Shown here piece after piece: positions 5,681-58,623 of a DNA stretch of 64,000 nucleotides. The translations under genes and the position numbers were made by a program. The stretch spans positions 160,001-224,000 of the forward strand of contig CM000434.1 in assembly GCA_000165345.1 (NCBI GenBank), read 5' to 3'. The notes below the pieces were generated by a model. That model searched no databases and was not told the DNA's origin. It saw nothing but the letters and a program-made list of their open reading frames with translations. Position 1 is the stretch's first letter. Every line of letters starts with the position of its first letter.

Positions 5681-6258
5681 TATTTCACATTATTAAGTTC
5701 AATATTTGTAGATTTAATTCAAATTTCTTTGAATATAACTTAATAGAAAATATTATTATTTATTAAAATTATACATTATATAGAATATATGTATTTAATA
5801 TTATTTATTGTACTGTTTCTATTATTTAAATTCTTCTTTTTTAAAAAAATAAGATTTACTATCAAAGAATACCAAACTTACTTATTTCAATGCACACGAC
5901 CCCCCAATTTTTTTATTACTTAAAAAATATTATTTGTTTTTCTAATTTGCATGTGGTGTCAATCATATACCGGTCTGCATGCAAAGGCGCTGAAATGCAA
6001 AAGGCGCCAAGGCCACTTACGTGGCAAGAAATAAAAATATTATACAGATTAAAAGGTGGACATGAATAATTAGTATAAAGAAAAATAATAATAATTCGCA
6101 CTTTTAGACTAAAAAAGATTTTTTTTTTTTTTTAATTAATTGAATAAAAAATATTTATGGATAAATCAGGTGATTATGTACAAATCTTAAGAATTGCTCA
6201 CTTACTCTTCGTAACTTAGGAGTTTAAGAGAAGAGAGAAAATATAGAGAAAAATAAAG
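5681..6258. promoter_or_regulatory. Bidirectional intergenic region between divergent genes, carrying a GC-rich motif island
   Basis: At 5967-6024 an otherwise >80% AT spacer contains TATACCGGTCT (ACCGGT), GCATGC, GGCGCT, AAGGCGCCAAGG and ACGTGG. Confidence 0.4.
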
Positions 6259-9200
6259 ATGGATCCTGTGGGAGCAATGAAGTCAATGATGGGAATGGTT
6301 GGATCTAACCTAGTTAGTTCAGCAAAACATGCAACTAAGCAAATGGTGAGTAAGATCCGTCAGAAAGCTGATCCCAGATCATATAGTAGCTCAAAAAAGA
6401 AAAAAAATAAAGCTGATAATGGTCAGAATATAGAAGGTACAAATATAAGTGATGACGATGATTTGAATGATTCAATGCTTCCTAATAGAAGAGATCATGG
6501 CAAAGAAGCAAGGAATAGAGATATAAATGGAGAAAATCTGGAAGTTAACAGTAATTTAACTCATGAATCATCAGATGACGAGTCAATTTTGGATTTTAGA
6601 GATCGAGTTGTAACAGAACAAGAATTCAAGAGATTAGCAGAACTTCTTGGTAGAGATATAAAAATGACAAATAGAGGTAATTCTGAAATGGAGAAACAAA
6701 TATGGTTAACTCCAAGAAGATTTAGGACTACAATACGATCAGTGCAGATTGAAAATCTAACAAAAATTGAACAGAAGAATGTATTTTTAGAATTTTCATT
6801 TGGAGGAACACTTACAGAAGTTAGACTATTGAATAGTAATACCGGCCAAGAAGTTCCAAGATTGTTGGGATATCCAGCATGCAAAGAATTTTTTACACAT
6901 ACTGTTGATATTAAACCGTTTTATATTGAAAATAATGATGAGTTACTTATTGATATTCCTGATGAAAATGGTAAAGACTATGATATGGAGCTCAAAAATA
7001 ATAATTCGATTGAAATTTCATTAGATGAAACTTTTGAATGGAGAGGTAGTTATTTACATTTAGAAAGGGAATTATTTAGAATTATTGCTTGGAGAGCTAA
7101 TTCAGCAACTGTTAATGAGTTATTAGGATATAATGAAGATATATTAAAAAATTATGCAACGGGAAGTGTTAATCAAATGATTACTTTATCAAAAAGAACA
7201 CATAATAATATATCAAATCCTATTTTTAGAATTACATTACAAATTATATTTCAAGAAATTTATGATTTTCAACTAAGCCTATCTCAATTCACTTTAAGAA
7301 ATATTAGTAATGACAATGAGAATTCCTCTCCTTCAGAACGAAAACATTCTCAAAATATTTATAATGATCATGAAATTGAATATAATCATGACAAAAAAAG
7401 TAACAAAAAGCAAACTAGTCGTGATAATACAAATATAATTAACGATCAAAATACTGTAAAAATTGATTTGAGAGATGATCAAGAATTAAATTTTAATGAA
7501 AAAGGAAGGCTTATTTCTAATAATCATTCAACATCTTGTAGATTGAATATCAAGTTCCCATCTTTTGGAATAGATAATCCTTTACCAACTAAATGTACTT
7601 CAACTTGGTCAGAATGTTATGAGAAACAAAATAAAATTATTAGATGGGATAATATTGGTATGATTCCTTTTAGAGGTACAATACATGAATTGGAAAGAAA
7701 TAATTTACATGCAAATTTAGAAATTAATTCAACTGGCAAAACTCATAATATTTTTAAATCTACAAAACAAGTCCATTGTACTTTTAATCTTAAAAATATT
7801 GTCTATTATCCCTATATTCAGACTGAAATTAAGCTTCCTGATGGAGAATCTTGTATACTTGAAGGAAAAATAGAATTTGGAAATATACCCAAATATCATC
7901 AATTGGGTAATATTTTAGAAATTGATGATGAAAATAAATTATATCTTATAATCAAAATTATTCGAATTGATAATTTAATCTTGAACATTTATGAAGTCAA
8001 CAATATTCTTCAAGATACTGAAAATGATGATTCTATGGATGTTTATGTTCAGTTAAGCTTTGATGGTAATCGAAAAGAAACGCCTGTAGTTTCTGGTACA
8101 TTACATCCACTCTTTCAAACTGAACTTACATTTATATTGGATTATATTGATCATGAAAAAAAGCCTAACGAACTTGACGCTCATTCTTTAGCCAAACTTT
8201 TAGAAAGAAAAGGTCCGATTGTTATTGATGTGTGGAGAAAAAATAAATCATCAATGGCACAACATTTAGGATGGACTGAAATTCATTGGAAAGATATTCT
8301 AATAAAAACTAATCATTCAAATTATTCTGGAAATGAATTTTCTGATTTAAAATTAAATCAACAATTCTCACCTTTAAAATTTGACCCTACTAATAATTTA
8401 ATGGACAATGCTAGTAATGCATGCTTAGGCGCCAACATGCTTAGGCGCCAAGAATACCGAAAATTTTATGATCGCAATATAGGTAAAGAAGTTGTATATG
8501 AAACAAGAGTATATCAGGATGCGAGTATATTATATAATTTAGGTCAAAGGCCCAGTTCTTTAGGGTCTTATACAAATGAAACAATCTCGCCGAAAGTATA
8601 TTTGGAAATATGGACAAAGCCTGATATAAGTTGCATGTATAATATTGGTTCAACGTCAGCATTACTAGTAAGAGGTAATAATGAAGTTGTGGGAGAAGTT
8701 TCTAAATATTTTGTTGATCGATTAAATAGAATTGTTGAGTGGTCAGGCATTGGTCCATCATTAAAGAATTCAAGAATAAGATCAAATATTTTTTATTGGG
8801 AATATGTTACTAAATCATTTGAGACTTGGGGAAGACAATATTCATATTATAGTTTGGATTCAAGAGGTGTAAGGCACTTACTTCCATCATTCTTACAACC
8901 TTTAAAACCTCTTACTGGTGTTGATAATTCCTCAAAAGTACATCATTTTATTCATTCTTTTCCATATTTACCAACTACAAATAATGAAATATGGAGAACT
9001 CCTGATTTATTCTTATTATCAAGACAAGGTACTCCATTTGATCATACATTATTGCAGGTATGTTTATTATTGGGTTTAAATAGAATAGCTTTTTTGGCAT
9101 GCGGTACTTTATTGAATAGAGATCCATATTCATGGGCAGTAACTATACATTATGAGTATATTATGAGTGAAAATGATGATTTATTTAATTTAAGTAAGGA

Positions 9201-58331: not shown

Positions 58332-58361
58332 TTTTTTTTTTTTTTTTTTTTTTTTTTTTTT
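58332..58361. repeat. Poly-T tract (30 nt) adjoining an ambiguous base
   Basis: n followed by 30 T. It is a homopolymer in an intergenic region and marks a likely assembly uncertainty. Confidence 0.85.
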
Positions 58362-58623
58362 GCATGTGGATGCATTTTTCTTATTTAAAAAAAAATTACG
58401 TGTTATACCGGTATATAAAAAATTTTGTTAAGGGGGAAAAAGTCGAGTAGAAAAAAAAAAATTTATGAATTAAAAAACAAATTGTTAGAGAAGAGAAAGT
58501 AGTTGAAAGTGTTTTGTCAAAGTTAAGTTTCAAAAAATAAGGACAATTCTGTTTGAAATAATTAAATTGATTTAAGAAAAGGTTTTGTAAATTAAAAATA
58601 AACCTTAAAAAGAAAAAAGAATA

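What the first reader, a model, noticed from the sequence alone, without database searches (positions are those of the whole stretch)
5967..58417. Palindromic TATACCGGTATA motif and GCATGC clusters recurring just upstream of genes
A palindrome centred on ACCGGT appears in at least six spacers. The instances are TATACCGGTCT (5967), CCCGGTATAC (13300), ACACCGGTATC (28463), TGCCGGTATAG (43118), ATACCGGTATAC (44873, perfect 12-mer palindrome) and TATACCGGTATATA (58404). Each lies 120-700 bp upstream of a start codon, on the plus strand for genes 6259, 13420, 29164, 43292, 45335 and 58624. GCATGC, singly or as tandem GCATGCATGC, co-occurs at 5977, 16861-16870, 16957-16966, 28507, 28533, 36137 and 44925-44936. 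Palindromy suggests a dimeric factor; GCATGCA resembles reported ApiAP2-type sites. The CCGGTAT motif is not one I can assign to a known factor.
Basis: seen in the sequence. Interest (0 to 1): 0.5.

Follow-up and report, generated by a model that had tools for sequence, protein, structure and literature searches.

The report
Conserved ATACCGGTAT promoter element in Cryptosporidium
A short palindromic DNA word (ATACCGGTAT) sits in six gene-control regions of this Cryptosporidium parvum chromosome segment, next to known GCATGC sites, and other Cryptosporidium species keep it at the same places, so it is very probably a real regulatory site that the Cryptosporidium papers searchable here do not list.

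Summary
The window is Cryptosporidium parvum chromosome 6 (about cgd6_670 to cgd6_840).

- **Enrichment.** CCGGTAT occurs 10 times (strand hits) against 0.72 expected. An unbiased k-mer scan of the 14.9 kb of non-coding DNA ranks ACCGGTAT (6 vs 0.08 expected, 0 in 49 kb of coding DNA) just behind the known TGCATGCA and E2F words.
- **Conservation.** The CCGGTA core is kept in 15 of 19 site-by-species comparisons, against 31% for comparable 6-mers. It forms the longest or third-longest invariant block in two four-species spacer alignments.
- **Symmetry.** At one site C. canis has the full palindrome, while C. parvum and C. felis each keep opposite halves. This fits symmetric, dimer-type recognition.
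- **Context.** The sites lie in compact modules with TGCATG(C), the known ApiAP2 "AP2_1" site, and with ATGTGG.
- **Prior knowledge.** No Cryptosporidium motif paper I could read lists it. The same palindrome is a known promoter motif in oomycetes (Phytophthora M94 TACCGGTA, Plasmopara ATACCGGTAT).

Verdict: a real, conserved cis-regulatory element with an unknown factor. The GCATGC part is already known. Genome-wide frequency is untested, and two independent loci had no intergenic copy.

The parts
5966..5976 (.). TATACCGGTCT: one perfect half-site. It lies in the divergent spacer between the clostripain/EGF gene (857-5680, -) and the C2/CEP76-like gene cgd6_680 (6259-11256, +).
   Evidence: Identical in C. 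ubiquitum within a module of about 95 bp that is nearly unchanged. Absent in C. muris.
13306..13315 (.). CCCGGTATAC: a half-site in the divergent spacer of the duplicated ribonucleotide-reductase R2 genes, next to the GAGACGGCG element.
   Evidence: Full TACCGGTAT in C. ubiquitum and C. canis. Absent in C. felis and C. muris.
28465..28475 (.). ACACCGGTATC: a half-site flanked by CCACAT (28451) and TGCATGTGG (28484). It lies in the divergent spacer between the condensin-II D3 gene and the bZIP gene cgd6_740.
   Evidence: C. canis has the full palindrome TTGATACCGGTATTAA, and C. felis keeps the opposite half.
43121..43131 (.). TGCCGGTATAG: a half-site 169 bp upstream of the BRCT gene (43292), preceded by ATGTGGTCAGGCGCC (43100-43114).
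   Evidence: CCGGTATAGGA is the longest invariant run in the four-species spacer alignment. CCGGTAC in C. ryanae. Absent in C. serpentis.
44872..44881 (.). ATACCGGTAT: a perfect 10-bp palindrome 463 bp upstream of the 304-aa secreted-protein gene (45335).
   Evidence: ATACCGGTA is invariant in four species. GATACCGGTAT in C. serpentis and CCGGTATAG in C. ryanae.
58404..58415 (.). TATACCGGTATA: a perfect 12-bp palindrome 219 bp upstream of the thioredoxin/PDI gene (58624).
   Evidence: ATGTGGTACCGGTT lies 50 bp upstream of the C. serpentis ortholog.
5977..5982 (.). GCATGC (AP2_1-type site) directly abutting the 5966 element.
16861..16872 (.). GCATGCGCATGC: two adjacent AP2_1-type cores in the mucin / P5-ATPase spacer.
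16957..16966 (.). GCATGCATGC: overlapping AP2_1-type cores, followed by ATGTGG at 16971.
28512..28540 (.). Two GCATGC cores (28512, 28535) 40-70 bp from the 28465 element.
   Evidence: GCATGC is kept beside the element in C. canis and C. felis.
36137..36142 (.). GCATGC between two E2F-type GGCGGG sites (36114, 36151). No CCGGTAT nearby.
44925..44938 (.). TGCATGCATGCATG: a triple AP2_1-type core 45 bp from the 44872 palindrome.
   Evidence: It is the longest invariant run (14 bp) in the four-species alignment.
5948..5956 (+). TGCATGTGG: partner word 10 bp upstream of the 5966 element.
28484..28492 (+). TGCATGTGG: partner word downstream of the 28465 element. The mirror CCACAT is at 28451-28456.
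43100..43114 (+). ATGTGGTCAGGCGCC: partner word fused to an E2F-type GGCGCC, 6 bp upstream of the 43121 element.
44907..44913 (+). ATGTGGA: partner word 25 bp downstream of the 44872 palindrome.
58361..58375 (+). TGCATGTGGATGCAT: partner word 29 bp upstream of the 58404 palindrome.

Best explanation
ATACCGGTAT is a cis-regulatory DNA element of Cryptosporidium promoters. The minimal unit is CCGGTAT, that is, a CCGG centre with TAT half-sites. It is most likely the binding site of a sequence-specific factor, not yet identified, that contacts it symmetrically as a dimer. One good half-site plus the CCGG centre is enough.

It does not act alone. It sits inside compact clusters of about 100 bp, richer in G+C than the AT-rich spacers around them. 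These clusters also hold TGCATG(C), the site of several ApiAP2 proteins, plus ATGTGG and sometimes E2F-type GGCGCC. Several of them lie in spacers between divergently transcribed genes, where a palindrome can serve both directions.

**Shown here:** the enrichment, the restriction to non-coding DNA, the co-location with the other words, the conservation at orthologous positions across the intestinal Cryptosporidium species and partly in C. serpentis, and the symmetric half-site behaviour.

**Inferred:** that a protein binds it, that it affects transcription, and which protein family is involved. My split is roughly Myb-type 0.3, ApiAP2 0.25, bZIP 0.2, other 0.25.
For: **Enrichment**
- CCGGTAT is 10 vs 0.72 expected.
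- In an unbiased scan of non-coding DNA, ACCGGTAT (6 vs 0.08) and CCGGTATA (6 vs 0.13) rank directly after the AP2_1 and E2F words. Neither occurs in 49 kb of coding DNA.
- Pooled over eleven loci from eight other species, CCGGTA is 0.58 per kb in spacers against 0.12 per kb in genes, although spacers are poorer in G+C.

**Conservation**
- The core is kept in 15 of 19 orthologous spacer comparisons, against 31% (111 of 359) for other 6-mers with four G/C. Binomial P is 2e-5.
- CCGGTATAGGA is the longest invariant run, and ATACCGGTA the third longest, in four-species alignments whose columns are only 25-26% invariant.
- It survives where the syntenic DNA has risen from about 27% to about 42% G+C (C. 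canis, C. ryanae).

**Symmetry**
- Information is confined to ATA-CCGG-TAT: T 84%, A 80%, T 77% at +1 to +3, with both halves pooled.
- At the condensin/bZIP spacer, C. canis has TTGATACCGGTATTAA, while C. parvum and C. felis each retain a different half.

**Module**
- 5 of 6 sites have ATGTGG within 50 bp (0 of 20,000 random placements reach this).
- 5 of 6 have TGCATG within 75 bp (1 of 20,000).

**Not a repeat or an RNA gene**
- The flanks of the six sites are unrelated.
- There are no tRNA or Rfam matches.

**Precedent**
- The identical palindrome is an over-represented, conserved promoter motif in oomycetes (PMC3597505 M94, PMC3520976 motif-9, PMC10031896 streme-5).
- A Phytophthora Myb protein, PITG_08960, prefers TACCGGTC/ACCGGTC on protein-binding microarrays (PMC11267843 supplement). 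TACCGGTC is exactly the sequence at 5968-5975.
Against: - No binding, accessibility, transcription-start or expression data were available, so function is inferred from sequence statistics and conservation only.
- All positive evidence comes from one syntenic segment of about 64 kb. The only independent regions I could fetch had no intergenic CCGGTA, no GCATGC and a single ATGTGG (C. ubiquitum 25 kb and C. felis 16 kb).
- Genome-wide frequency is therefore unknown, and the element can at most mark a subset of promoters. At the window's site density about 1.8 sites would be expected in the C. ubiquitum locus, so finding none is not significant.
- C. muris lacks it at both promoters tested, and C. 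serpentis at one of three.
- Three published motif surveys of C. parvum did not report it. That fits a modest genome-wide count.
- The species comparisons are not phylogenetically independent, so the binomial P is optimistic.
Confidence: 0.75

Rival explanations
1. It is a core-promoter element rather than a site for a gene-specific factor. On this reading it is a TATA-like box (GGTATA) with a G+C anchor, read by TBP/TFIIB and setting the start site.
For: The half-site continues as TATA in most copies: CCGGTATAC, CCGGTATAG, CCGGTATATAAAA. The 58404 copy contains a canonical TATATAAAA. In C. serpentis the PDI copy is only 50 bp from the ATG.
Against: - Position +4 is only weakly A (19 of 44), and conserved copies read TATC, TATT and TAC.
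- Conservation is symmetric about CCGG, which a directional TATA box does not need.
- Distance to the ATG ranges from 50 to 696 bp and shifts between orthologs.
- Only about a third of the promoters in the window have it.
Confidence: 0.08
2. It is a DNA element with a non-transcriptional role, such as a boundary or loading site for chromatin or SMC complexes, or a replication-related site, that happens to lie in spacers.
For: It is a palindromic, orientation-independent element in spacers between divergent genes. No expression link has been shown.
Against: It is embedded within a few tens of bp of AP2_1, ATGTGG and E2F-type words, which are typical promoter motifs. It also lies upstream of tandemly oriented genes (43121, 44872, 58404). 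It occurs in small numbers per region rather than at regular spacing.
Confidence: 0.07
3. It acts at the RNA level, as a 5'-UTR or non-coding-RNA element.
For: Some copies could lie inside long 5' UTRs (113-219 bp from the ATG).
Against: A 10-nt palindrome with no loop cannot form a stable hairpin. The informative half flips strand between species at the same locus. There is no Rfam or tRNA match. Copies in divergent spacers would be read on opposite strands.
Confidence: 0.04
4. It is a chance or compositional effect. Promoter cores are local G+C islands, and a reader scanning for palindromes picked one word after the fact.
For: The sites do sit in G+C-richer clusters. The relaxed 12-mer is not enriched. 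Independent loci had none.
Against: An unbiased scan of all 8-mers recovers it with P of about 1e-5 after correction. Retention at orthologous positions far exceeds that of G+C-matched 6-mers from the same spacers. It forms the longest invariant block in one spacer alignment.
Confidence: 0.03

Closest known systems
Oomycete promoter palindrome TACCGGTA (Phytophthora infestans M94, Roy et al. 2013; Phytophthora motif-9 GTACCGGTA, Seidl et al. 2012; Plasmopara halstedii streme-5 ATACCGGTAT, 2023)
   Same: The core is identical, and for Plasmopara the whole 10-mer is identical. It is palindromic, over-represented upstream of genes, conserved in orthologous promoters of related species, and has no assigned factor.
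   Different: It comes from a different supergroup lineage (stramenopiles against alveolates). In oomycetes it is linked to zoospore, germinated-cyst and infection-stage genes and to RXLR effectors. Whether the two share a homologous factor or merely coincide is unknown.
AP2_1 motif TGCATGCA of Apicomplexa (bound by C. parvum cgd2_3490, cgd1_3520, cgd8_3230, cgd5_4250; Plasmodium AP2-Sp)
   Same: The GCATGC clusters in the finding are this motif. It too is palindromic, enriched in non-coding DNA and conserved, and it lies in the same promoter modules.
   Different: CCGGTAT shares no bases with it. No published C. parvum AP2 microarray motif described in the text resembles ACCGGT. The logos in the figures could not be inspected.
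Phytophthora Myb PITG_08960 site ACCGGTC (protein-binding microarray) and PsMyb37 site TACATGTA
   Same: A Myb-family protein can read an ACCGGT core. TACCGGTC, one of its top 8-mers, is the exact sequence at window 5968-5975. The sister palindrome TACATGTA is bound by a Myb-related protein.
   Different: The Cryptosporidium consensus continues TAT after CCGG, not TC. Only one of the six sites fits ACCGGTC. No Cryptosporidium ortholog was identified.
Plant DRE/CRT element TACCGACAT bound by AP2/ERF (DREB) proteins (from my own knowledge)
   Same: Seven of nine bases match TACCGGTAT. It is read by an AP2-fold domain, the dominant transcription-factor fold in Apicomplexa.
   Different: The DRE is not palindromic and has a CCGAC core. 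This resemblance is recalled, not tested.
E2F/DP sites (TTTGGCGGGAAA, TGGCGCCA) of Cryptosporidium
   Same: Both are G+C-containing words strongly enriched in C. parvum spacers, sometimes in the same module (43109 GGCGCC).
   Different: CCGGTAT has no GCGC or GCGG core. E2F sites also occur in spacers that lack CCGGTAT.

Membership tests
ApiAP2 AP2_1 site (for the GCATGC clusters) | Core TGCATGCA / GCATGC(A) | tested here: met
   Ten non-coding GCATGC copies, most extended to TGCATGC(A).
ApiAP2 AP2_1 site (for the GCATGC clusters) | Over-represented in non-coding DNA of the genome | tested here: met
   GCATGCA is 16 vs 0.33 expected in non-coding DNA. Reported genome-wide in PMC3734150.
ApiAP2 AP2_1 site (for the GCATGC clusters) | Bound by an AP2 domain | not testable with these tools
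   The literature reports microarray binding by four C. parvum AP2 domains (PMC4117751). These particular copies have not been assayed.
Oomycete TACCGGTA promoter motif (M94 / motif-9 / streme-5) | Palindromic core TACCGGTA | tested here: met
   Two perfect copies (44872, 58404). Full copies occur at two further loci in other species. The remaining sites have one half plus CCGG.
Oomycete TACCGGTA promoter motif (M94 / motif-9 / streme-5) | Over-represented upstream of genes genome-wide | tested here: inconclusive
   Strong within the window and its syntenic loci. No copies in 41 kb of independent loci. The whole genome was not available.
Oomycete TACCGGTA promoter motif (M94 / motif-9 / streme-5) | Conserved in orthologous promoters | tested here: met
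   Kept in 15 of 19 comparisons, and forms invariant blocks.
Oomycete TACCGGTA promoter motif (M94 / motif-9 / streme-5) | Same (homologous) binding factor | not testable with these tools
   The factor is unknown in both lineages.
Myb-type site of the PITG_08960 kind | ACCGGTC preferred 7-mer | tested here: not met
   Only the 5966 site reads ACCGGTC. The consensus is CCGGTAT.
E2F/DP site | [C/G]GCGC[G/C] or GGCGGG core | tested here: not met
   No such core in the element.
TATA box / core-promoter element | TATAWAW sequence and fixed distance from the start site | tested here: inconclusive
   Only one of six copies has TATAWAW. Distance to the ATG is 50-696 bp and varies between orthologs. 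No start-site data were available.
Dispersed repeat or transposon terminal repeat | Similarity extending beyond the core in several copies | tested here: not met
   The flanks of the six copies do not align. Only A, C, C, G, G are invariant.

The most novel reading that the evidence does not exclude
Cryptosporidium and oomycetes use the same palindrome, (A)TACCGGTA(T), because they inherited the same DNA-binding factor from an early common ancestor. Cryptosporidium would have kept it, as it kept E2F/DP, while other apicomplexans lost it. On this reading the element is a third major regulatory input in Cryptosporidium promoters, working together with ApiAP2 (TGCATG) and the unknown ATGTGG reader.
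Probability: 0.15. Interest if true: 0.7.

Novelty: new member of a known kind. Interest (0 to 1): 0.45.

Why it matters
Cryptosporidium is a leading cause of childhood diarrhoea, and its gene regulation is poorly mapped. The current motif catalogue has six families (2025 review, PMC12246861), and only ApiAP2 and E2F sites have assigned factors.

A further element that is conserved across the genus and sits in fixed company with TGCATG and ATGTGG would matter in three ways:
- It gives a concrete bait (ATACCGGTAT) for pull-down, DAP-seq or microarray screens of the unassigned Myb, bZIP and AP2 proteins.
- It gives precise bases to mutate in reporter constructs.
- The match to an unassigned but abundant oomycete motif means that finding the factor in one system could solve the other.

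The GCATGC half of the finding adds nothing new.

Tried and rejected
**Explanations tested and rejected**
- Repeat or mobile-element origin: the flanks are unrelated.
- tRNA or structured-RNA origin: none found.
- The relaxed 12-mer TATACCGGTATA with up to 3 mismatches: not enriched, so only the 8-10 bp core carries signal.
- GATA-factor reading (GATACCGG): position +4 is C in only 9 of 44 half-sites.
- Fixed bipartite ATGTGG-N-CCGGTAT site: spacing ranges from 6 to 29 bp and orientation varies, so these are separate sites within a cluster.

**Searches that led nowhere or were blocked**
- Independent genomic regions via paralogs of the C2 protein (L013, L014): no intergenic copies, so uninformative.
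- Prior reports in Cryptosporidium: none in the text of Mullapudi 2007, Cohn 2010, Oberstaller 2013 (text and supplements) and 2014, the 2021 lncRNA paper, the 2025 ATAC-seq preprint or the 2025 review.
- Bankier et al. 2003, which analysed over-represented words on this same chromosome, is not held. The review credits it only with TGCATGCA and E2F.
- Assigning expression clusters to the flanking genes: abandoned because the gene-ID mapping was uncertain and the supplement is truncated.
- Identifying a Cryptosporidium ortholog of PITG_08960 or PsMyb37: not possible, since I had no sequences and no protein searches left.
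Full report
**What the window is.** The sequence is AT-rich (22% G+C in spacers, 28% in genes), compact and almost intron-free. Exact protein look-ups place it on Cryptosporidium parvum chromosome 6. Examples are the ribonucleotide reductase R2 protein EAK89769, the BRCT protein XP_627455, and the bZIP gene cpbgf_600740 = cgd6_740 at 29164-30507. The C2/CEP76-like gene at 6259-11256 is cgd6_680. 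Genes flanking the motif sites are:
- a clostripain/EGF protein and cgd6_680;
- the duplicated RNR-R2 pair;
- condensin-II subunit D3 and the bZIP gene;
- a BRCT protein;
- a 304-aa secreted protein;
- a thioredoxin/PDI protein.

**The observation.** The 44872 site is a perfect 10-mer palindrome (ATACCGGTAT), not a 12-mer. The 58404 site is a perfect 12-mer. The 16861 cluster is GCATGCGCATGC.
- Dinucleotide-preserving shuffles give 0.72 expected CCGGTAT hits against 10 observed, and 2.6 expected GCATGC against 15 observed. No shuffle out of 100 reaches either count.
- To remove the after-the-fact choice of word, I scanned all 6-, 7- and 8-mers in the 14.9 kb of non-coding DNA against an order-2 Markov expectation.
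- After poly-A and AT repeats and a GAT-repeat word (GATGATGA) that is far commoner in coding DNA, the top words are ATGCATGC/TGCATGCA and TTGGCGCC/GGCGGGAA, which are the known AP2_1 and E2F motifs.
- Next come ACCGGTAT (6 vs 0.08 expected) and CCGGTATA (6 vs 0.13 expected). Neither occurs once in 49 kb of coding DNA.
- The word therefore ranks as the third motif class of these spacers.

**Conservation.** I fetched syntenic loci from C. sp. chipmunk genotype I, C. ubiquitum, C. canis, C. felis, C. ryanae, C. serpentis and C. muris. The CCGGTA core is present in the orthologous spacer in 15 of 19 site-by-species comparisons:

| Species | Retained |
|---|---|
| C. ubiquitum | 4/4 |
| C. canis | 4/4 |
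| C. sp. chipmunk genotype I | 2/2 |
| C. ryanae | 2/2 |
| C. felis | 1/2 |
| C. serpentis | 2/3 |
| C. muris | 0/2 |

- Other 6-mers with four G/C from the same spacers are retained in 31% of comparisons (111 of 359), even though that set includes the other conserved motifs. The binomial P is 2e-5, without correction for shared ancestry.
- In the four-species alignment of the BRCT-gene spacer, only 26% of columns are invariant. CCGGTATAGGA is the longest invariant run there.
- In the spacer of the 304-aa gene, ATACCGGTA is the third longest run, after TGCATGCATGCATG and ATGACGTGTAT.
- The element persists in C. canis and C. ryanae, where the syntenic DNA is about 42-43% G+C rather than 27%.
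- Pooled over all fetched loci, CCGGTA is about five times denser in spacers than in genes.

**Anatomy.** Twenty-two aligned instances show that the information is confined to ATA-CCGG-TAT. Beyond ±3 from the CCGG centre there is only a weak preference for A.
- Every site has at least one perfect TAT (or TAC) half. Nine instances, at four of the six loci, have TA on both sides.
- The condensin/bZIP spacer is the most telling case. C. canis reads TTGATACCGGTATTAA. In the same orientation, C. parvum keeps TTGATACCGGtg and C. felis keeps aaACCGGTATCAA.
- The centre is fixed and either half can decay, which is the behaviour expected of a site read symmetrically by a dimer.
- The flanks of the six C. 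parvum copies are otherwise unrelated. There is no tRNA or Rfam match in the window. This excludes a dispersed repeat or an RNA gene.

**Company.** The element lies in compact multi-motif clusters.
- Five of six copies have ATGTGG (often as TGCATGTGG) within 50 bp. None of 20,000 random placements in non-coding DNA reaches this.
- Five of six have TGCATG within 75 bp (1 of 20,000), and three have a full GCATGC.
- Every spacer that has CCGGTA also has TGCATG and ATGTGG. Other spacers carry only E2F-type words.
- The cgd6_670/680 core (5945-6030) is almost base-for-base identical in C. ubiquitum, although the flanking protein is 72% identical.
- C. muris keeps the GGCGCC and CCACTTACGTGGC parts of that module, but not ATACCGGT.

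**What is known.** GCATGC is the AP2_1 motif, long known to be over-represented in C. parvum spacers. It is bound in vitro by four C. parvum AP2 domains (PMC3734150, PMC4117751). That half of the finding is already explained.

For CCGGTAT I found no Cryptosporidium report. It is absent from:
- the 25 motifs of Oberstaller 2013 and its supplements;
- Mullapudi 2007 and Cohn 2010;
- the text of the AP2 microarray paper;
- the 2021 lncRNA promoter analysis;
- the 2025 ATAC-seq study, whose top MEME motifs were E2F1, poly-T and E2F6;
- the motif table of the 2025 review.

Bankier et al. 2003, which looked at over-represented words on chromosome 6, is not held. The review credits it only with TGCATGCA and E2F. 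Full-text searches for the word together with Cryptosporidium returned only primers.

**An unexpected parallel.** The same palindrome is an established but unassigned promoter motif in oomycetes:
- TACCGGTA is "high-confidence" motif M94 of Phytophthora infestans. It is conserved among Phytophthora species and over-represented in zoospore and germinated-cyst genes (PMC3597505).
- Motif-9 (an inverted repeat, given as GTACCGGTA by PMC10031896) lies upstream of 1,284 Phytophthora genes (PMC3520976).
- ATACCGGTAT is streme-5 in Plasmopara halstedii (PMC10031896).
- Its sister palindrome TACATGTA is bound by the Myb-related PsMyb37 (PMC11134190).
- On protein-binding microarrays, the P. infestans Myb protein PITG_08960 prefers AACCGGTC/TACCGGTC/ACCGGTCG (PMC11267843 supplement). 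TACCGGTC is the exact sequence at window 5968-5975.

This is a lead, not a test. The Cryptosporidium consensus continues TAT rather than TC, and no ortholog could be sought.

**Mechanism.** I conclude that ATACCGGTAT is a conserved cis-regulatory element bound symmetrically by an unidentified factor. It works within promoter modules together with ApiAP2 sites and an ATGTGG reader (confidence 0.75). Candidate factor families are:
- **Myb:** there is a precedent for reading ACCGGT.
- **ApiAP2:** several C. parvum domains gave no microarray motif, and the plant AP2/ERF DRE TACCGACAT is similar (from my own knowledge).
- **bZIP:** these are obligate dimers on palindromes. cgd6_740 lies beside one site and has an unusual basic region, N..SA..HR (my own reading).

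Rival explanations and my confidence in each:
- a TATA-like core element (0.08);
- a non-transcriptional DNA site (0.07);
- an RNA-level element (0.04);
- chance (0.03).

**Limits.**
- All positive evidence comes from one syntenic segment.
- The two independent loci I could reach had no intergenic CCGGTA or GCATGC, and only a single ATGTGG (C. ubiquitum 25 kb, C. felis 16 kb).
- This is statistically compatible with the window's site density, but it shows the element belongs to a promoter subclass.
- No binding, accessibility, start-site or expression data were available.

**Verdict.** The GCATGC part is already known. The CCGGTAT palindrome is a real, conserved element that appears to be unlisted for Cryptosporidium, which makes it a new member of a known kind. 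Interest is moderate (0.45). It would rise if the oomycete parallel reflects a shared ancient factor.

Noticed in passing
window 5948-5956, 28484-28492, 43100-43105, 44907-44913, 58361-58369; CCACAT at 16853 and 28451: ATGTGG, often as TGCATGTGG, is a second recurrent and conserved promoter word next to CCGGTAT. It is invariant in four-species alignments. It is not in the 2025 review's motif table and only loosely resembles Oberstaller motif 2 (DTGTGGGG).
   Followed up: partly
window 5945-6030; L011 9695-9790; L012 9840-9885: The core of the divergent cgd6_670/680 promoter is nearly base-for-base identical between C. parvum and C. ubiquitum, although the flanking protein is 72% identical. GGCGCC plus CCACTTACGTGGC survive even in C. 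muris. TTACGTGG looks like a hybrid bZIP site.
   Followed up: partly
window 13289-13305; L011 16966; L012 17482; L015 15107; L016 24110: A GAGACGGCG / GAGACGCCGTCT element in the spacer of the duplicated RNR-R2 genes is conserved from C. parvum to C. muris. It may correspond to Oberstaller's 'Unknown set 1' (RMGACG / WTAGACR).
   Followed up: partly
window 44950-44960: ATGACGTGTAT, a CRE/ACGT-type word, is invariant in four species upstream of the 304-aa secreted-protein gene. ACGTGT is also enriched in spacers (9 vs 0.96 expected).
   Followed up: no
L013 (C. ubiquitum) and L014 (C. felis), whole loci: An unrelated genomic region has no intergenic GCATGC or CCGGTA, and only one ATGTGG. This suggests distinct promoter classes in different parts of the genome.
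   Followed up: partly
L008 (C. canis) and L010 (C. ryanae) versus window 33-54 kb: Syntenic DNA is 42-43% G+C in C. canis and C. ryanae but about 27% in C. parvum. This is a large compositional shift within the genus, and the motifs are retained across it.
   Followed up: no
window 29164-30507: The bZIP gene cgd6_740 has a non-canonical basic region (RNRQSAQKHRDKQK: N..SA..HR instead of N..AA..S/C-R). It lies 696 bp from the CCGGTAT site at 28465, so it is a possible palindrome-binding candidate.
   Followed up: no
window 14540-14546, 24127-24154, 58331: Short runs of N (ambiguous or masked bases). One lies inside the condensin gene and gives X residues in its translation. One is 73 bp upstream of the 58404 palindrome.
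   Followed up: no
window 17690-18796 and 18806-22072: The P5-type ATPase gene appears as two adjacent ORFs. The annotated 1460-aa product spans both, so there is a short intron or a stop between them.
   Followed up: no
window 28176, 29129, 44795: Three non-coding copies of TACATGTA, the sister palindrome bound by Myb-related PsMyb37 in Phytophthora. The 44795 copy is only partly conserved.
   Followed up: no
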